This document shows, piece after piece, positions 7,536 to 53,900 of a stretch of DNA of 64,000 bases. The position numbers were made by a program, and so were the translations under genes. Within the stretch, counting starts at the first letter, position 1; each line of letters opens with the position of its first letter. The DNA comes from Leucoraja erinacea (lineage: Eukaryota): positions 186,001 to 250,000 of the forward strand of contig NC_073379.1 of the NCBI RefSeq assembly GCF_028641065.1. Direction: 5' to 3'. A model generated the notes under the pieces. That model searched no databases and was not told the origin of the DNA. It saw only the letters and a list, made by a program, of their open reading frames with translations.

Positions 7536-7581
7536 ATGATGTCGGCGGTTTCACTCAGTCTGTTCCTGGCGTTAATAGTCC
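7536..7581 (+). CDS. IGHV: IgH leader exon (MMSAVSLSLFLALIV)
   Basis: ATG, hydrophobic signal peptide, phase-1 donor C|GTGAGT. Confidence 0.92.
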
Positions 7582-7748
7582 GTGAGTAATGAGGATGGAC
7601 AAATTCCTCACGCGAGTTTCTACACCATTCCCCTCCCCTCCTACCCACTCTAGAACCCTCCCAATTTATTTCCTATTGATAATTATAGTGGGGGATTAAT
7701 GGTCAATATTTTAACCTCGCCATTCATGCCTTTTTTTTTAACTTGCAG

Positions 7749-8052
7749 GTGTCCATTCCGATATCGTTCTCACTCAGCCCAAGACAGAGGCCGCCACTCC
7801 TGGAGGCTCCATCACACTGACCTGTGAAGTCACCGGGTTCGCTCTTAGCACCTACGCGATGGCTTTGGTCCGTCAGGCCCCCGGGCAGGGGCTGGAGTGG
7901 CTGCTTCGCTACTTCAGTTCTTCTAACAAGCAATTCGCTCCGGGGATAGAAAGCCGATTTACTCCGTCCACAGACCATTCGACTAACATATTCACCGTGA
8001 TCGCCAGGAACCTGAAGATCGAAGACACCGCTGTCTATTACTGTGCGAGAGA
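7749..8052 (+). CDS. IGHV: IgM VH segment (unrearranged)
   Basis: Acceptor ttgcag; open frame VHS-DIVLTQPKTEAATPGGSITLTC...LVRQAPGQGLEWL...EDTAVYYCAR. Confidence 0.97.
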
Positions 8053-8091
8053 CACAGTGTGAGGATTCAGTGTCAGGTCCGTACAAGAACG
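8053..8091 (+). other. VH recombination signal sequence, 23-bp spacer
   Basis: CACAGTG (8053-8059), 23 nt, ACAAGAACG (8083-8091). Confidence 0.95.
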
Positions 8092-8434
8092 GCACGTTGG
8101 GAAGTCCAGCTTTTACCATCAAAGGCTAGAGGTGAGCAATTATTTCAACAGCTATAATAGCAGTTGGGAAATGGAGGCAAAGCACCATTCGCAAATCCAA
8201 CACGATATTAAAAAATGTAACCAAATGTATGAGGTTTTTTTATTCGCTTCACACATACCCATAGCGTTGTGCAAAATCATAGACCACGAAAATATGCTCA
8301 TTCCATTAGGCAAGTGAGATGCAGGGAGATTGTTGGTGTTATGTATATTTACTGTGTTCTTTGTGAACTGCTGGGCCATTTAAAATCGTGTGGAAGGCCG
8401 TTTCAAATGAAACCTGAGTGTGAACTGCATGGGA

Positions 8435-8513
8435 GGTTTTTGTGCGGGTCTGTCTCACTGTGTACAACAGTGGGTCACGGTGCTGCAAACAGCGACTTCC
8501 CCGTACAAAAACC
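8435..8513 (+). other. IGHD: DH (D1) segment TACAACAGTGGGT (8463-8475) with 5' 12-RSS and 3' 22-RSS
   Basis: GGTTTTTGT-12-CACTGTG, 13-nt coding end, CACGGTG-22-ACAAAAACC; open in all three frames. Confidence 0.96.
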
Positions 8514-8745
8514 CGGACACCTAGTTTTCTCCTGCTCCAACCTACAAGCACCGTAGGAGAGGCCGTGTGAAGCAAATTCAAATGAAAGTTCACCGCTTAA
8601 AGTTGCATGGATTGTTTTGAGAAATGTCCAGCTGTCTTATTTTATATGAGTTTTAGAAGAACAGCGTTTAGCTTTATAAGTGACAGCGAAGAGTGTCCTG
8701 GGACATCCTCAGTTAGCAGTACATGCATCAGTTCTTGAAGAACGA

Positions 8746-8773
8746 AGTATTTGACATGGCATGTTTCACTGTG
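8746..8773 (-). other. 12-bp-spacer RSS in front of the joined D-J
   Basis: AGTATTTGA (6/9 nonamer), 12 nt, CACTGTG; no nonamer match at 22 or 23 spacing. Confidence 0.8.
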
Positions 8774-8816
8774 TATACTTACTGGGGAGAAGGCACCATG
8801 GTGACGGTAACCAGCG
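8774..8816 (+). CDS. IGHJ: JH segment, apparently germline-joined to D2 (YTYWGEGTMVTVTS)
   Basis: WGxG motif; phase-1 donor G|GTAAG; starts TATACT directly after a 12-RSS. Confidence 0.93.
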
Positions 8817-10059
8817 GTAAGAAACTTCATCCTATTCAGTATCTAGATGTATTCAGTTGTAATTTTATTCTATATTTCCAATGATTATATTAAATTGTTC
8901 TTCTACATTAATTACCCATTCATTGCAATGTTGGATCGATGTTGCTTTAGAATGTAATGTGATTCCGCTGCAGTGAGATTTAAACTTGCCTTATGTGCTA
9001 TGACTTTCGATCCTTTGACTATGAAACAGATGTGATTTAGTTCCAAATTAGTGGGGAAATGTGCATCAACTTGCTTTCACTATGCTTTCTAATTGTTTGA
9101 GATTGTTGTGGTCCTTGATCTGCGATGCGTCGAACTGTAGTTTCTGATAAACAGCAGGTACTTTGTCTCAGTTTGTTTCTTCTCAGCGCATATGAAACAA
9201 ACGACAGAAACGGATAAATCCTGGGTGTAAAATGTTCAAGTTTTTAAAGTGTATGTATTAATTGGTGGAATCGCCTTGATACCTTTAACCCAATCGCTAA
9301 CACAACTTGCATGGAAGAAGTAAAAATATCTTGCAGCAAAACACAGAAGTGCAAGGTTCAGCGTCAGGGTTAATTGCGCAGTTATATATCTTGAAGTATA
9401 ATGAATAGGAAGGAATAGTGGATGCTGATTTATGCGGACGATTGACACAAAGCTGGAGTAACTCTGCCTGTCCCGCGGAGTTACTCCAACTTGTTTTGTC
9501 TATCTTGAAGTACAATGAGTAGGCCATGTGAACCAATGTTACAGCAAAGCTAAGAAAGCAAAGTCCGTGAAACGCGATCTATAGAATGACAATGTACCGG
9601 GTGTACTAGGGACAGAGGAACTAGGGTAATGGAGGAACTGAAGGAAATTCACATTATATGGAAATGGTATCTATGTAATCCACTTGTATTGTGTTATTCG
9701 TCGTTATTTCAACAATGATTGGCTCTGTGGTTATGAATGCATTCTGGTGGTCTTTGGACAGAGATATTTGGATTTTTGCGAAGAGTTTCAGCAAATTTGT
9801 GTTATGCGATTCATCCCATCGGCGGTATGATTCAGCCGGTCATTGCGGGAGACGATATTGTTGCACAATTTGACATGTTTGTCCGTTCAATTCGAGTGGC
9901 AGCGACCGGGTATTGTTGGTGTATGAAGTGTCCGATTATGTTATTTCAATAAACGTAAAGAAGATATATGTTTAAAAATAAAAATAAGAATTTATTACTA
10001 GGAACAGTAAATGGTGCAAACGCCTAGAGGCTCACGCAGCCTGTGGCGAAAGACAAATC

Positions 10060-30390: not shown

Positions 30391-33300
30391 AATTTACAAA
30401 ATTAGAACAGACAAGAGAGAAACACTAACACTGCTTAAATATATTAATGATAGATTTTTACAATACTATCAAAAATTGTATTCATCTAAAATGACAGAAC
30501 AATCAGCAGGAATGGAAACATTTCAACAGATGGTCCTGATGGTCTTTAAATCTTTAAAAAAGTTCTGAATTTTAAAAAAAATTATGATCTGGTTTCTCCA
30601 CGCCTACAGACACTGTACAAATACGCTTACACTCAACAGAAACTCCCAGAAACTCTAAATGAATCTACAATCAGACTCATACCAAAAATGGATAAGGTTC
30701 TTGAAGACCCAGATTCATATAGAGTAATAGCCCTTTTAAATACTGATCAGAAAATATTAACTAAAATTCTATCTCATAGATTGAGCTTAGTGATTAACAA
30801 ATTAATACACCCCGACCAAACAGGTTTTATTCCAAAACGTTATTCATTTTATAATCTGAGAAGACTATTCAATATTATATACTCCAATAGAATTCCTAAT
30901 GCAGATCTAGCAATTATTTCGTTAGATGCTGAAAAAGCATTTGACCAGGTAGAATGGACATATTTATTTTCGGTGATGGAAACATTTCAATTGGGAGAGA
31001 AGTACTGTACATGGGTTAAATTGTTATACTCTAATCCAACAGCTAGAATATTAACAAACCAAATGTTATCAACTAAATTTAATCTCTCTAGAGGTTGTAG
31101 ACAAGGATGTTCACTATCCCAACTATTATTTGCTCTTGCAATCGAACCCTTAGCAGAAAGTGTTAGAACCCATACAGGAATATACGGATATAACACTAGA
31201 GAAACAAGGAATAAAATTTCCTTATATGCAGATGATGTACTAATATATATTACAAAGTTAGAAACTAGTATTCCAAATCTATTAAATTTAATAACTCAAT
31301 TTGGTCAGTTCTCAGGATATAGAATTAATTGGAATAAAAGTGAAATCATGCCAATAACAAAACTCAATCTACATACATTACAACAATCCCCTTTTAAAAT
31401 AGTTAAAGATAAATTTAAATACTTAGGAATCTATGTAACTAAGACATATACTTCTTTATTTAAACTACATTTTCCACCCTTACTGAATAAACTACACAAG
31501 AATATTCAATACTGGAAAACACTTCCCATTTCAATGCTTGGTAGAATTAATGCTATAAAAATGATCTTCTTACCGCAACTACTGTACCTATTTCAATTAA
31601 TCCCGATATATATCCCAAAAACTGTTTTCAAAAAAGTCGACTCCATTGTTACAAGTTTTATCTGGGATTATAAGAATCATAGAATAAGTAAAAAACATTT
31701 ATGTAAGTCAAAGATAAATGGAGGTTTGGCTTTGCCAAATTTCTTGTTTTATTTTTGGGCAGTCCATATTAAAAACATGAATTTCTGGCTGGAAGAAATG
31801 GATCAACAACCAGATTGGTTAAGGATGGAAAAGGAAGACTGTTTACCTTTTGAAATTGGACCGATCATATTTGCTACCACAAAACTGCACAAAAAAAACT
31901 ATAAGGAAAACCCCATAATACATAGTGGAATACGAATTTGGAAACAATTAAAAAAAGTTTTAAAATTGAATAATATACCACTATGCCTCCCCATTGTAAA
32001 TAATCCTTTATTCAAACCATCCTTTTTGGATAAGGGTTTCACACAATGGAAAAATTATGGAATTAAAAAGATTGGACATCTTTATGGGAAAGGCACTTTT
32101 CTTTCATTTCAGGAGTTACAACAGAATCATGGACTGCACTCAAATAATTTCTTCAGATATCTACAAATTAGAGATTATGTTAAATCTAACACACAAGTCT
32201 ACAGGACTAGGGAACCAGAAATCCTTGATGAATGTTTGAACAAGCATCCTAACACTGAAAAATTAATAGCTTATATTTATAACACCCTCCTAAACAACGA
32301 GGTACCACCGACGGAACCATATAGACACACATGGGAAAATGAATTAGGTCATCCTATAACAAAAGATTTGTGGGACGAAAGTTTACAACATATACATCAA
32401 TGTTCGTTAAATGCCAGACATGCTTTAATACAATTTAAAGTCTTACATAGATTACACTACTCTAAAATAAAACTAAATAGAATCTTCCCACAAATCTCTC
32501 CTATTTGTGATAAATGTCTACATCTAGATGCTAATTTAACACATACGTTTGCAAATTGTATAAAAATTAAACATTTCTGGACTGATATTTTTGAAATAAT
32601 TTCAGAAGTTATTAATACAAAACTGGATCCAAACTCAAAATTAATAATACTTGGAATATCAGAGCAAAGTTTAACACTCACAACAAGCCAAAGAAATTTC
32701 CTCGACTACAGTATAATAACCGGGAAAAAATTAATATTAAAATTTTGGAAAGGCCCTACGACCCCCACAATTAAAATGTGGATTGTGGAAATGTCGGAGA
32801 CCCTATATCTAGAAAGAATTAGACTTGTCTTAATGGACAAACAAGAACTTTTTGATAAAATATGGGCTCCATTCATTAATAGTAAGATTAAACGAGTACT
32901 TACCAGTATGAAGTTTGATCTGTATTTTATGAGGAGTTATGATGAGTGATTACGTGAAGAACTCGCCCAGTGCGCTGTTGCGGCATACTTCGAAGCAGAG
33001 GTGTGGAATCACAGGATAGACACAATATTTGAAGTAACATAGTAAAGATCAGTGAGACATCAGTTTATTAGTTTGATCTATATATTGAGGGTGGGAGCGG
33101 AGGGCACGTAATCCCTCATCATAACTCCTCATAAAATACAGATCAAACTTCATACTGGTAAGTACTCGTTTAATCTTACTATTTTACTTCGGAGTCACGT
33201 GAGCGATTCCGTGAAGATTTCAAAGGTCTGTGATTTCAAACCGTGTAACAGTTTTTATTTCACTCACTGCCGAAGTTTTTGAGGGAGGAAGTGTTATCGT

Positions 33301-36300
33301 AATCAACCAATGGATCTGCTTTCACAAGAAACAGAAAGGTATTTGTTAACAATAACAACATAAATAGCTCCCCTGAGCTTAAATTAATATTGCAGTTTGT
33401 AATATTCTTTCTGCAATTAAATCAGGCTTATCAACGGTTTACAATAAAAAATGTTCTGAACGTCGTTTCCCTTGACCATCCTGCCGTATTGAGAATGTGG
33501 TCAACCGGGATGTCCATTCGTTCAGCCGCTGATATCAATGCTGCCCTAGTGGAATGGGATTTAAATGTATTATTATCTATTCCGGCAGCTTTCAGTACCT
33601 GTTTGAGCCACCTTGAAGTGGTTTGGCTCGTTACCCCGTCTTGGGGTTTCTGTGGTTGACCCATAGGCTTTCCTCTCCCTCTAAGATTGTGGGTTGTGTC
33701 TATATATTGTTGTAGATGGGTCACCACACTCAACCTGGACTCTGGTGGGTAGGCCCGGAATCCCACCAGTGAATTGGGCGTTCCTGGTCCATATAACCAT
33801 ATAACAATTGCAGCACGGAAAAACAGGCCATCTCGACCCTTCTAGTCCGTGCCGAAGTCATAATCTCGCCTAGTCCCATATACCTGCGAGTTAGGTTTTT
33901 ACCAGACCTAGAATGATGAACGTGATCCGTCTGAGGTAATCACCATGTTATCCAGTCTAGTTTTATGGAGTGACTGGACTCTGTGAGCGTAACGAGAGCC
34001 ATAAGCATGAGCGTTTTTAACATAGATTGAGCAAGACTGAGGGATCTGGCTGGTGCCATTCTCTGAGATATGTCAATATCACACCGATATCCCATGCATG
34101 GGTATACCTGGGTTTTTGGGGCTTATTATTATAATTGCCCTTCATAAGTTTATCTTCAGTGGATGGGATCCCATGCTCTGTTGTGCTGCTGTTTTTAGAT
34201 AAGCAGACAAGGCGCTTCATGCTGTATTTACGGCACTGTAACTCACCTTTTAATCATGGTGTAGATGGTCCAGGAACTCCAATACGTCAGTGGTTGAATA
34301 GTTTGGTATGTTGTCCCTGCGTCGTGGCAGTATTTTTGCCATGTTTGCTCTTGGTGACTGTTCGCAGGGATGCCGACATGGTGGTAATGGTTCATTTGGA
34401 TAATCCCAGTCCCTGGTAAGGTCTATTCAAAACCTACACCCAGGAGTTTGATGTTTTTATGGCATGGGTGGCTTATGCCTGATACTGGGTTGAGTCAGCA
34501 ACCATGGTCCACTAGGGAAATCCATAGGTGACTTCCCACCATGTCGTGATGAACTGGGAACCATGGCTGTGTAGGCCGGTCGGGCACGTTCAATATCTCG
34601 GAGACAGATTCCATCTGTATTGCGAAGTGCCCGACTGATGAGGCAGAAGGGAGGAAGGCAAAGCAGAAATTCCCCCTTCCAGCGTGTAGGTATCTATCGC
34701 TGCTGCCTCTGATCTGGTTCCTAAGTCACATACATAGGTTACTGGTGATTCCGTCTTGTGCAACCAAATTGATATCTGGCGTTCAAACTGCTTAATACCT
34801 TTAGCTACATTCACCATCTTTTGTAGTTTTGGTGAATATATTCGATACAAATTCCAATGGTTCATGTTTACTCCCATGATCCGTATAGTAATGAGCCTTT
34901 CTAGTTCAGCTTGACCTTCTCGCTTCTCTTTCTTAGAGGGAGAAAATGCCGTTTGGGTGCATTGCTGAACTGGCGGTAATATGCCCAATTTGAATTCAAG
35001 TTTGTATCCACTAATACTGTTGAGTGTATATTAGTTATTTGTGACAGCACCCCATGCTTTTATCAACAAGTGTAAATGCCCCCCCCCCCCCCCCCCCGCA
35101 GTTAGTAGAACACTCCTTATTTTGTGTAAACTGGGAGGAACCAGACTACCTACCTCCATGTTCATTGTTTTTTCATGAAGGCTGTTTTGCTGGTATGCTG
35201 GTGCTGTCGGTGGGGCGGCGCATTTTCCCACGGCCACTCTGGGCCCCTGTCTAAAAAGAACTTTGGGGGTAATGTGAGGCGGTCGCCAGGCTTTCACCAG
35301 TCCTTGTTCGATATTTGCTGGTGGATCCGAGGGGTGCTGCCAGCTGGGTGTTGGATGCGATGTCCTGCTCGTTCCATGGCCTGCCCTCATGAGGCGCACG
35401 GGTTTAGCTGCCTCTCTCCCGCAGCAGCGGTTTGCATAGCCCCGTATATTTGGGGTTGAGGGCAGGTCTTATATGCACAAATGTCAGTCGAGTATCCCAA
35501 ATTTGGGAACATCTTAGGCGTCAGCACACTCGTAGTGCAACGGGATAGTCTCATCCTGGGAGAACCACCTTGGTCATCATGGCGTCTCGCCTGCTAGGTG
35601 AGTATGATCCGTGGAAAAAACGAGCAAAGGCGGTGACATCTTGACCCTTCTGTTAGGAGCTTCAGAATTCGCTGCTTTTAGCTCTTGTCTGCGAGTCTGC
35701 TGACCCAGCTGCCTGCAGATTTACCTCTAGAAAGGCCTACTCCTGCAGGGCTTTGTTTGGGAAGATGGTCGCGTGGAGGAGCCATGTAGTGGCCCACGAC
35801 ACCCAGCAGCTCTTCCTGATCCTGCTCCCCTGGCATACTCCTATTCTCGTCCGCCTGCCCAGCGTTTAAGCCAGCCCAGCCCTGGCCTCCTTAGCTAGCC
35901 TCAAAAGAGGGAGCAAAAGGGTGTGCTATAAATTGGAGGAGGCATAGCTCAAACTCCGTTGTTGCATCAATCCCTCGACAAGGGAGATGGCTAGTGCAAT
36001 AGCACTGGGGTAGGAGTGTCAGCTCCCTTGGCATTCAGCCAGTGACCCCTCGTTTTCCTGGAGGTTTTGTAACTCCATGACCTCCTCTGGCTTGGGGAGA
36101 CAGACATACTTGTTTTTGCTGTCTCCAGCCTGTTCCAGTATTGGAGGAAGTTGGTTCCTGTTAGACCTAAATTTTTGGTAAGGTTTTGTCTTACCTGTAG
36201 TTAGAGGCTGCCTGCCGTTTTTCAGGCGGCATTGTAGCGGTTCCCGGGCGGCGATTCTCCTTGTCAGGAGTCTGCAGGGCTGCCGGTCGGGTTTTTTAAA

Positions 36301-36963
36301 TTTCCCTCCGGTCCGCTGCTGTTAACCAAACAGCTGTTCAGCGGACCGGCATCAGCGCAGCTCCCTGTCAGCGATCCGCAGCGTGTGCGGTCCCGTTTGC
36401 TCCTATCCCCCTCCACTGTCGGCTCCTTCGCTGGAGTCGAACGGGGGCCGCTTCCTCTGCTGCTTTGCTCCCCCTGGAGCAAAAAACCACAAGGCCCGAT
36501 TAAGGTAGGTACTTACCTCACGTTCCTTGGTTTGCGGGAGCGCCTGACTCCCGCTGGCCGCGTGTGCACAGCTGTGCGATAATGCCGCAACAGCGCACTG
36601 GGCGGGTTCTTCACGGAATCACTCACGTGACTCCGAAGTAAAATTATCTGACGGGATAGATTGGCCCAACTGAAACTTAAACTCAGGATTAGATGAAAAG
36701 TCATACTTTACAATCTACGAACCTATCTCCAATGATGTATTATAAGTAATCCATTCCACCTTTTTTGTATTTTTGATATATGTAACTCTTTTTTCTCTCT
36801 TTCTCTCTTTTTCTATATAAAAAAACACTAGAAGCAGAAGTAATCGACAATTGAAAATTTTAGTAATGTATGACTGATGTATATGAAAAGTTTTTTTACT
36901 ATAATATGTAACTATACTTTATAATATGACTACTAATAAAAATATTATTAAAAAAAAAAAAAA
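30391..36963 (+). mobile_element. 5'-truncated L1/Tx1-like LINE; ORF2 open over 30688-32880, resuming 36645-36659; poly(A) at about 36950-36963
   Basis: IHPDQTGFI, SLDAEKAFD, RGCRQGCSLS, LYADD and C-terminal Cys/His motifs; target duplication AAG(G)AATTTTG(A/T)AAGTTT at 30374-30390 and 36965-36982. Confidence 0.92.
32878..36644 (-). mobile_element. End-to-end DIRS-like element (inner) with intact termini and ICR but decayed ORFs
   Basis: AAT at both ends; ICR at about 33105-33216; YR remnant 33431-33766 (FKSHSTRAA, AGWSRETTF). Confidence 0.88.
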
Positions 36964-50999: not shown

Positions 51000-53900
51000 T
51001 CGTTCTCTCTCTTCTTTCAATTGTTTTAGATTTAATTTAATTTTTTGTGCGCCGAGCTCTGATTTTTTTTAAGCGTAGTTTTGGCCTGGCCTCCGTCGGA
51101 GCTGGGCGGAGAAAGGGGGGGGGTGAGAAAGGAGGAGGGGAGGAGGAGCAGAGATAAATAAAACTGGGACATGGTTAGTTTTACCATTGCAAAAATATAT
51201 ACACACACATACATACATACATACACGCATACGCGCGGAGCGGACCAGTCTTGTTCTTGACAAATTTCACACAGTTTCGACTAGAAAGGAGGCGGAAATT
51301 CGTGAGAAAAATAGAGGGCTGCTTCTTTCATCAATTAGCGTGTAAACGGCTTCAGAAATGTACAAACATTGAGAGAGAGACATGGAGAGAGACACGGTGA
51401 AAGGAGAGAGAGAGAGAGAGAGAGAGAACGAGAGAAACAAGGAGAATGAGAGAGGAAGAGAGAACGTGTGGGAGAGAGGGGGGAGAACGAGAGAGAGAGA
51501 GAATGTGGGAGAGAGAGGGAGAGAGAATGCGAGAGAGAGGGGAGAGATGGAAATGTAGTGAGAGGGAGAGGGATAGTGAGGGCGGTCGATCGCGCAGGGG
51601 GGACTTACTGAGAGACGGGGGGGGGGGGGGGGGGGGGGGGGGGGAGAGAGAGGGCGGTCTGCCCCCATCATAGGATCCCACTCATCCCTTCTGCTCACCC
51701 CACCACCCACCCATTCTCTCCCTGTCATCACATCTTTCTCTCTCTCTCCTCCCACCTCTGCCCCCAATACCATGTGCTCTAATTTTGCACACTAATCTCT
51801 TGTGTGGGACCTTTTCAAAGGCATTTTGAAACTCCAGATACACCACATCCACTGGCTCTCCCTTACCCATTCTACTTGTTACATCCTCAAAAAAATGCAA
51901 AAGATTAGTCAAGCATGATTTCCGTTCATAAATCCATGTTGAATTTGACCGATCCTGTCACTGCTTTCCAAATGCTGCTATTACATCTTTAATAATCGAC
52001 TCGAGCATCTTCCCCACTACCAATGTTAGTCGTGTTGTTACCAATTTAAAGAATATAAAGCAGGATATTAAAAGCTTCTTTAGGTTTGTGAAGAGGAAAA
52101 AATTAGTTAAGACCAAAGTTGGACCCTTGAAGATCGAAAAAGGTGAATTTATTATGGGGAACAGGAAAATGGCAGATGAGTTGAACAGGTACTTTGGATC
52201 TGTCTTCACTAAGGAGGACACAAACAATCTTCCTTATATAGTAGTGGCCACAGGATCTGGGGTGACAGAGGAACTGAAGGAAATCCACATGAGGCTGGAA
52301 ATGGTGTTGGATAGACTGATGGGACTGAAGGCTGATAAATCCCCAGGGCCTGATGGTCTGCATCCCAGGGTACTTAAGGAAGTGGCTCTAGAAATCGTGG
52401 ATGCATTGGTGATAATTTTCCAATGTTCTATAGATTCAGGATCAGTTCCCGTAGATTGGAGGGTAGCTAATGTTATCCCACTTTTTAAAAAGGTGGGAGA
52501 GAGAAAACGGGGAATTATAGTTAGCCTGACATCTGTGGTGGGGAAGATACTGGAGTCCATTATAAAATATGAAATAGTGCACATTTGGATAGAAGTAACA
52601 GGATCGGTCCGAGTCAGCATGGATTTACAAAGGGGAAATCATGATTGACTAATCTTTTGGAATCTTTTGAAAATGTAACTAGGTAAATGGACAAGGGAGA
52701 GCCAGTGGATGTAGTGTACCTGGACTTTCAGAAAGCATTTGATAAGGTTCCACATAGTGCGCAAAATTAGAACACATGGTATTGGGGGTAGAGTGCTGAC
52801 ATGGATAGAGAAGTGGTTGGCAGACAGGAACAAAGAATAGGGATTAATGGGTCCCTTTCAGAATGGCAGGCAGTGACTAGTGAATTACTGTAAGGCTCGG
52901 TGCTGGGACCGCAGCTATTGACAATATACATCAATGATTTGGATGAAGGGATTTAAAGTAACATTAACAAATTTGCAGAGACACAAATCTGGGTGGCAGT
53001 ATGAACTGTGAGGAGGATGCTACGAGAATGCAGGGTGAACTGGACAGGTTGGGGGAGTGGGCAGATGCATGGCAGATTAAGTTTAATGCGGATAAATATG
53101 AGGTTATCCACTTTGGCAGCAAAAACAGGAAGGCAGATTACTATCTAAATGGCGTCAAATTTGGAAAGGAGAAGTACAACGGGATCTGGGGGTCCTTGTA
53201 CATCAGTCTATGAAAGTAAGCATGCAGGTACAGAAGGCAGTGAAGAAATCGAATGGCATGTTGGCCTTTATAACAAGAGGAATTGAATATAGGAGCAAAG
53301 AGGTCCTTCTGCAGTTGTACAGAGCCCTAGTGAGACCACACCTGGAGTATTATGTGCAGTTTTGGTCCCCTAATTTGAGGAAGGACATTCTTGCTATTGT
53401 AGGTTTATAAGGTTAATTCCCGGGATGGCGGGACTGTTATATGCTGAGAGAATGGAGCAGCTGGGCTTGTACACTCTGGAGTTTAGAAGGATGAGAGGGT
53501 ATTTCATTAAAACATATAAGATTGTTAAGGGTTTTGACACACTAGAGGCAAGAAACGTGTTCCCAATGTTGGGGGAGTCCAGAACCAGGGGCCACAGTTT
53601 AAGAATAAGGAGTAAGCCATTTAGAGCGGAGACGAGGAAACACTTATTCTCACAGGGAGTGGTGAGTCTGTGGAATTCTCTGCCTCAGAGGGTGATGGAG
53701 GCAGGTTCTCTGGATGCTTTCAAGAGAGAGCTAGATAGGGCTCTTAAAATAGCGGAGTCAGGGGATATGGGGAGAAGGCAGGAACGTGGTACGTGAGGAT
53801 GATCAGTCATGATCACATTAAATGGAGGTGCTGGCTCGAAGGGCTGAATGGCCTTCTCCTGCACCTATTGTCTATTTCCCCCTCTTAATCCCTTTGTCCT

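What the first reader, a model, noticed from the sequence alone, without database searches (positions are those of the whole stretch)
7749..8816. IgM cluster in a V-D-DJ configuration (germline-joined D2-J)
Seen: V with a 23-RSS, one free D with 12/22 RSS, then a 12-RSS directly followed by TATACT-TACTGGGGA (YTYWG...). There is no second free D and no 22/23-RSS before J. Established: elasmobranch IgM clusters are normally V(23)-(12)D1(22)-(12)D2(12)-(22)J, and germline-joined clusters exist. Inference: D2 and J were joined by RAG in the germ line, with trimming and no evident N bases. Only two junctions stay variable. A single 12/23-legal V-to-DJ event would also give a complete exon with a very short CDR3, i.e. 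a semi-fixed repertoire. The DJ nonamer is weak (6/9).
Basis: partly seen in the sequence, partly recalled or inferred. Interest (0 to 1): 0.75.

Follow-up and report, generated by a model that had tools for sequence, protein, structure and literature searches.

The report
Skate antibody gene with pre-fused D-J
In this skate-type IgM antibody gene the last two variable-region pieces (D2 and J) are already fused while V and D1 stay separate, likely an inherited cut-and-join made in an ancestor's germ cells; it is a small variant of a habit long known in sharks and skates, and a one-base insertion may have disabled this copy.

Summary
Observation confirmed. The window holds a whole IgM cluster: leader, V (23-RSS), D1 (12/22), then a 12-RSS followed by TATACT+J. 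Two unjoined paralogues in the same genome give germline D2 and J. The window's junction is D2 minus 6 nt plus J minus 11 nt, with no N bases and 411 bp deleted. No unjoined copy of this cluster was found in the assembly. Joined clusters are common here: 3 of 5 IgM clusters of this family are partly joined, a second-family cluster is fully VDJ, and an IgW cluster has an independent V-D-DJ join. A germline RAG coding joint is the best reading (about 0.85), but it was not tested on reads from another individual. Germline D2-J joints are in print for skates (VD-DJ). V-D-DJ was found in print only as a somatic intermediate. This scan noted the same layout before in shark genomes. The weak nonamer is a family trait. 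Cmu3 carries an extra A, which is either a real frameshift or an assembly error, so the proposed semi-fixed repertoire is unshown. Low interest.

The parts
7536..7581 (+). Leader exon (MMSAVSLSLFLALIV), GT donor
   Evidence: open frame, nearly identical in the 4 IgM paralogues
7749..8052 (+). VH exon, open, both cysteines; Leu in place of the FR2 Trp, as in all 4 paralogues of this family
8053..8091 (+). V 3' RSS, 23 spacer (heptamer 7/7, nonamer 7/9)
   Evidence: same nonamer in unjoined C590
8435..8462 (-). D1 5' RSS, 12 spacer, perfect consensus
8463..8475 (+). Free D1, 13 nt, identical to D1 of C590 and C50
8476..8513 (+). D1 3' RSS, 22 spacer (6/7, 9/9)
8746..8773 (-). D2 5' RSS, 12 spacer (7/7, 6/9), now serving the fused DJ
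   Evidence: identical to C1531, 2 differences from C590/C50
8774..8779 (+). Remnant of D2: first 6 of 12 nt
8780..8816 (+). J segment lacking its first 11 nt; GT donor at 8817
12851..13147 (+). Cmu1 exon, 297 nt, in frame, C1-set
14553..14870 (+). Cmu2 exon, 318 nt, in frame, C1-set
15938..16241 (+). Cmu3 exon, 304 nt, out of frame through a run of 6 A at 16212-16217 where 4 of 4 paralogues have 5
17546..17937 (+). Cmu4 plus secretory tail ending in CQ-stop; internal donor for the membrane form; AATAAA at 17965
   Evidence: (best named solved-structure hits are Ig mu)
21433..21560 (+). Transmembrane exon 1, open
21695..21703 (+). Transmembrane exon 2 (ends VK-stop)

Best explanation
This is an elasmobranch IgM heavy-chain cluster in which D2 and J are fused, likely by RAG cutting at the D2 3' 12-RSS and the J 23-RSS in an ancestor's germ cell, and likely inherited since. 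Shown: 411 bp, including both signals, are missing relative to unjoined paralogues; 6 nt are gone from D2 and 11 from J; nothing was added; V, D1 and their signals are intact. Inferred: RAG did it, without TdT, in the germ line, independently of the D2-J joint in C1531. Predicted: in a B cell the gene would need two joins (V-D1, D1-DJ) instead of three, would end CDR3 with a fixed (Y)TYW, and would be about 17 nt shorter before trimming. A direct V-to-DJ join is 12/23-legal but would need trimming or N bases to be in frame. Whether a protein is made is open (about even odds), because Cmu3 has a +1 A that gives a stop early in Cmu4 if it is real.
For: The junction parses fully as D2(6 nt)+J(-11 nt) with no leftover base. 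Both breakpoints lie in the coding ends next to the heptamers; a random deletion within the 730-bp span would do so with a rough chance of 0.0006. No unjoined version of this cluster was found: the J pattern gave 5 places, the other 4 being 90-93% identical to the window over 3.5 kb. Joined clusters are common in this genome: C1531 is VD-DJ, C532 is VDD-J, C31 is an in-frame VDJ, and IgW C909 is V-D-DJ with no N base. C532 and C1531 are sisters (98.5%), yet only C1531 has a D2-J joint, with a different junction, so the joins likely arose more than once. Germline joints of nurse shark NS4 show trimming and little TdT activity (PMC2193156, passages), whereas somatic IgH joints show trimming and N/P addition (PMC2435157, section 10). 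Rearranged bands were not detected in whole blood or heart DNA by Southern blot (same paper, passages). Germline VD-DJ clusters are reported for horned shark and little skate (PMC2193153; PMC5192425; passages).
Against: The junction was seen in one assembly only, in a single copy; no second individual and no duplicated copy of the same junction was seen. V-D-DJ does occur somatically in nurse shark spleen and thymus (PMC2435157), and the source tissue here is unknown. The assembly is noisy in these clusters: 4 of 5 carry an out-of-frame Cmu2 or Cmu3 exon, and C50 shows many 1-bp indels near its contig end. The simple parser did not resolve the C1531 DJ junction; by eye it is one unexplained C, then D2 TATA, a palindromic GT and an untrimmed J.
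Confidence: 0.85

Rival explanations
1. A somatic D2-J intermediate from a lymphocyte (probably a T cell) was captured in the assembly.
For: Somatic V-D-DJ exists in nurse shark lymphoid tissue, with many partial rearrangements in T cells (PMC2435157). Several paralogues sit on short contigs of 32-74 kb.
Against: Somatic joints are polyclonal and would not win a consensus (inference). The window lies in a 113.5-Mb sequence, no unjoined version of this cluster was found, and the joint has no N bases.
Confidence: 0.06
2. A RAG-independent deletion through the TACTGG word shared by D2 and J, followed by a 4-nt slippage duplication.
For: D2 and J share TACTGG, and the junction contains TACT twice.
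Against: The microhomology product would be 4 nt shorter than what is seen, so two events are needed where a coding joint needs one. The other D2-J joints in the genome (C1531, C909) do not use this word.
Confidence: 0.05
3. An assembly error removed 411 bp.
For: Small indel errors seem frequent in these clusters.
Against: The gap removes the D2 3' RSS to J RSS interval with both ends in coding ends, keeps J in frame, and parallels joints in other clusters. There is no long repeat at the breakpoints beyond a 6-nt word that was not used.
Confidence: 0.03
4. Not exclusive of the best reading: the cluster is a dead copy. The germline join is real but has no effect on the repertoire because Cmu3 is frameshifted.
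For: Cmu3 is 304 nt; spliced as it stands the chain stops early in Cmu4. 4 of 4 paralogues have 5 A at this place. Horned shark germline-joined H genes were not found expressed (PMC2193156, passage).
Against: The change is +1 in a homopolymer. Both unjoined paralogues also show Cmu3 frameshifts in short base runs (305 and 302 nt), which points to assembly error. All other exons, splice sites and signals examined are intact.
Confidence: 0.45

Closest known systems
Partially germline-joined IgH clusters of horned shark and little skate: VDD-J, VD-J, VD-DJ ('V D1-D2J//C') (PMC2193153, PMC5192425, PMC4279169, PMC3308330; passages read)
   Same: Single V-D1-D2-J-C cluster; part of the joining already in the genome; a D2-J coding joint keeping the D2 5' 12-RSS, as in VD-DJ; mixed with unjoined and fully joined clusters in one genome.
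   Different: V and D1 are still free, so two joins remain instead of one. This exact germline layout was not named in the papers I could search; the primary 1988-1990 papers could not be read.
Somatic V-D-DJ intermediate of nurse shark Group 2 IgM (PMC2435157; passages and section 10 read)
   Same: Identical configuration; it shows that RAG can make the D2-J join first.
   Different: There it is somatic, clone-unique, with N/P additions, and less frequent than V-D1 joins. Here it is a fixed N-less joint in an assembly consensus.
Germline-joined NS4 light chains of nurse shark (PMC2193156; passages read)
   Same: Joined genes derived from split ones by repeated independent events, with trimming and little TdT activity.
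   Different: Light chain, complete VJ, with expression in pups shown. Here the join is partial and expression is unknown.
IgM1gj of nurse shark (PMC4279169, PMC5192425; passages read)
   Same: Germline-joined IgM variable region.
   Different: IgM1gj is fully VDJ-joined, lacks Cmu2 and is neonatal. This cluster has all four Cmu exons and still needs RAG.

Membership tests
Elasmobranch IgM heavy-chain cluster | One V, D segments, one J, then four Cmu exons, secretory tail and TM exons in one minilocus | tested here: met
Elasmobranch IgM heavy-chain cluster | RSS grammar V23, 12-D1-22, 12-D2-12, 22/23-J in the unjoined state | tested here: met
   Shown in paralogues C590 and C50 (C50's V RSS is garbled); the window keeps the V, D1 and D2 5' signals
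Partially germline-joined IgH cluster | Two segments fused with loss of the facing RSS pair and the DNA between them | tested here: met
   411 bp with both signals absent
Partially germline-joined IgH cluster | Junction like a V(D)J coding joint (trimming, P or few N, no target-site duplication) | tested here: met
   D2 -6, J -11, no N
Partially germline-joined IgH cluster | Join present in non-lymphoid or germ-cell DNA, or in several individuals | tested here: inconclusive
   Indirect only: assembly consensus with no unjoined version found; no independent reads across the junction were examined
Functional (expressed) IgM gene | Open reading frame through all C exons | tested here: inconclusive
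   As assembled, not met (Cmu3 +1 A); assembly error not excluded
Functional (expressed) IgM gene | Rearranged transcripts with this J | not testable with these tools
   No repertoire data could be examined
IgM1gj | Fully joined VDJ and no Cmu2 | tested here: not met
   V and D1 are free; Cmu2 is present and in frame

The most novel reading that the evidence does not exclude
D2-J-first germline joining is a selected design, not drift. In this genome an IgM and an IgW cluster independently fused D2 to J without N bases, each leaving exactly 6 nt before the J's Tyr-Trp codons and reading D2's first codon as Tyr (YTYW, YDYW). Both would be expressed genes with a fixed short CDR3 end and TCR-beta-like V23-12D22-12J grammar, able to complete an exon in a single V-to-DJ cut and so to dominate the early-life repertoire.
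Probability: 0.1. Interest if true: 0.55.

Novelty: new variant of a known kind. Interest (0 to 1): 0.24.

Why it matters
Modestly. It adds the 'D2-J only' step to the known series of germline-joined layouts, and this one genome shows nearly the whole series (unjoined, V-D-DJ, VD-DJ, VDD-J, VDJ) with close paralogues. That makes it a usable set for asking how often RAG acts in germ cells and whether TdT is absent there. If the gene is intact and expressed, it would allow a test of whether partly joined clusters get an early expression advantage and whether D1 is skipped.

Tried and rejected
Laying public reads across the V-to-J stretch gave no result, so germline status rests on indirect evidence. 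The run search listed 20 runs, none holding half of the sampled words (best share 0.43) and no RNA holder listed; this says nothing on expression. Four runs laid on the Cmu3 region each had one contig lacking a base at 16212. The listed pieces that span the place carry other differing letters (11 in 314; 2 in about 52) and look like paralogues or relatives, so the frameshift question stays open. Rejected: the weak nonamer as a sign of decay (family trait); Leu for the FR2 Trp as a defect (4 of 4 paralogues share it); a shared origin of the window and C1531 D2-J joints (different junctions, and C1531's sister C532 has a free J); a reversed 23-RSS-like site at 8233-8271 as a real signal (weaker at the aligned place in C590 and C50); three further Cmu4 hits (two on C3, one on C607) as clusters (no V or J motif found in the fetched flanks). 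Synonymous/non-synonymous counts in C exons were mixed (Cmu4 mostly synonymous, Cmu2 mostly replacement) and were not used. Literature: eight searches; 'V-D-DJ' occurred in 2 papers, one on sharks, there as a somatic product. Harding 1990 (two papers) and Kokubu 1988 were not held. The junction figure of PMC2435157 is a supplement that could not be read, so I have no count of N bases in somatic DJ joints. PMC2192082 and PMC2191167 gave no usable passage; PMC12227049 passages did not bear on the join. The scan's index showed no look-alike window.

Full report
Observation. The stretch 7536-8816 holds a leader, an open VH exon with a 23-RSS, a 13-nt D flanked by 12- and 22-RSS, and then a 12-RSS that abuts TATACT followed by the J core, read YTYWGEGTMVTVTS with a GT donor. 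Downstream lie Cmu1-Cmu4, the secretory tail and two TM exons. The four C exons match the C1-set family, and the best named solved-structure hits of Cmu4 are Ig mu chains. It is an IgM cluster. Earlier scan notes call this genome a skate; I did not test that.

What the junction is. A search of the window's own genome gave paralogues. Two, C590 and C50, are unjoined, with D2 = TATACTGGATGG between two 12-RSS and a J beginning ACTATCTTGAC-TACTGG behind a 23-RSS. Against these, the window lacks 411 bp and its junction parses as the first 6 nt of D2 plus J less 11 nt, with nothing added. A random deletion in the 730-bp span would put both ends in these coding ends with a rough chance of 0.0006. 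A deletion through the shared word TACTGG would give a product 4 nt shorter than seen. The 12-RSS before the DJ is the old D2 5' signal. Its nonamer is 7/9 in the unjoined paralogues and the same 6/9 in C1531, and the IgW D2 signal is also 6/9, so its weakness is a family trait.

The genome's other clusters (lower bounds). The J pattern found 5 IgM clusters of this family: the window (V-D-DJ), C590 and C50 (unjoined), C532 (VDD-J) and C1531 (VD-DJ). A Cmu4 search gave 9 places: these 5, a divergent cluster on C31 with an in-frame joined VDJ, and 3 fragments with no V or J motif in the fetched flanks. Of 3 IgW clusters found, C10 is unjoined, C909 is V-D-DJ with 3 nt of D2 and no N base, and C944 has V run into the D1 3' signal. 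Over 3.5 kb the window is 90-93% identical to the other four, while C590/C50 are 97.9% and C532/C1531 98.5% alike. C1531 has a different D2-J junction and its sister has a free J, so the D2-J joints of the window, C1531 and C909 are likely three separate events (inference).

Germline or somatic. Not tested directly: no independent reads across the junction were examined. Indirect support: the join is the assembly consensus in a 113.5-Mb sequence; no unjoined version of this cluster was found; and the joint has no N bases. That fits germline joints in nurse shark NS4 genes (PMC2193156, passages) better than somatic IgH joints with N/P addition (PMC2435157, section 10). Against: V-D-DJ is a real somatic intermediate in shark spleen and thymus, the source tissue is unknown, and the junction is single-copy.

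How it would work. RAG likely cut at the D2 3' 12-RSS and the J 23-RSS in a germ cell, and the ends were trimmed and ligated without TdT. In a B cell, V23 would join 12-D1 and D1-22 would join 12-DJ. Untrimmed, this gives an in-frame CDR3 of 10 residues, ARDTTVGYTY. Direct V-to-DJ is legal, but the untrimmed product is out of frame; N-less trimmed joins give 2-5 residues. None of this was observed.

Is it alive? Cmu3 is 304 nt, with 6 A where 4 of 4 paralogues have 5. Spliced as it stands, the chain stops early in Cmu4. But 4 of the 5 clusters have an out-of-frame Cmu2 or Cmu3 in this assembly, 3 of them at short base runs, including both unjoined ones, which suggests polishing errors. Contigs of four public runs did not settle it. 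I put the odds at about even.

Comparison with what is known. Partial germline joining of IgH in horned shark and little skate, including 'V D1-D2J//C', is stated in PMC2193153 (passages) and PMC5192425 (passages); about half of the loci are said to be joined (PMC3308330, passage). An early expression advantage is proposed in PMC4279169 (passage), while horned shark joined H genes were not found expressed (PMC2193156). In eight searches I found V-D-DJ in sharks only as a somatic form. The primary skate and horned shark papers were not held, so an earlier report is not excluded. Unchecked notes of this scan describe the same layout in shark genomes.

Verdict. The feature is real and correctly read: a likely germline D2-J coding joint in an otherwise unrearranged IgM cluster. 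It is one more permutation of a known phenomenon, of uncertain function. Interest 0.24.

Noticed in passing
G000:C909:68177-68930 (L041): IgW cluster also in V-D-DJ form: 3 nt of D2 joined to J with no N base (YDYW); six C-domain exons found downstream.
   Followed up: partly
G000:C944 near 134529-135400 (L042): IgW cluster whose V runs directly into the last bases of the D1 3' heptamer (D1 lost), and whose J lacks its first 4 nt yet is still attached to its 23-RSS. This resembles an open-and-shut RAG joint, or a plain deletion.
   Followed up: partly
G000:C1531:33260-33630 (L004): VD-DJ IgM cluster. Both joints show possible palindromic (P) bases; the DJ has a TAG in the J frame and Cmu2 has a 4-nt insertion.
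   Followed up: partly
G000:C532:20850-21300 (L005): VDD-J IgM cluster, 98.5% like C1531 but joined differently; the only one of the five with Cmu2 and Cmu3 both in frame.
   Followed up: partly
G000:C31 near 192100-192500 (L039): Divergent IgM cluster with a fully joined, in-frame VDJ (CDR3 ARYDNPAGHYYLQD) and four C exons found.
   Followed up: partly
G000:C3:9823243, C3:9850888, C607:12391: Three near-identical frameshifted Cmu4 fragments with no V or J motif in the fetched flanks.
   Followed up: partly
window 8233-8271: Reversed 23-RSS-like site between V and D1 (heptamer 5/7, nonamer 8/9); weaker in paralogues, probably chance.
   Followed up: yes
window 7749-8052: The FR2 tryptophan is replaced by leucine in all five V genes of this family.
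   Followed up: partly
window 30550-32946 and 51932-52645: Long open frames that look like reverse-transcriptase remnants of LINE-type elements (likeness from recall, not searched).
   Followed up: no
window 32876-36644: Matches an insertion lying in the J-Cmu1 intron of C1531 at 81-92% identity, probably a shared mobile element.
   Followed up: no
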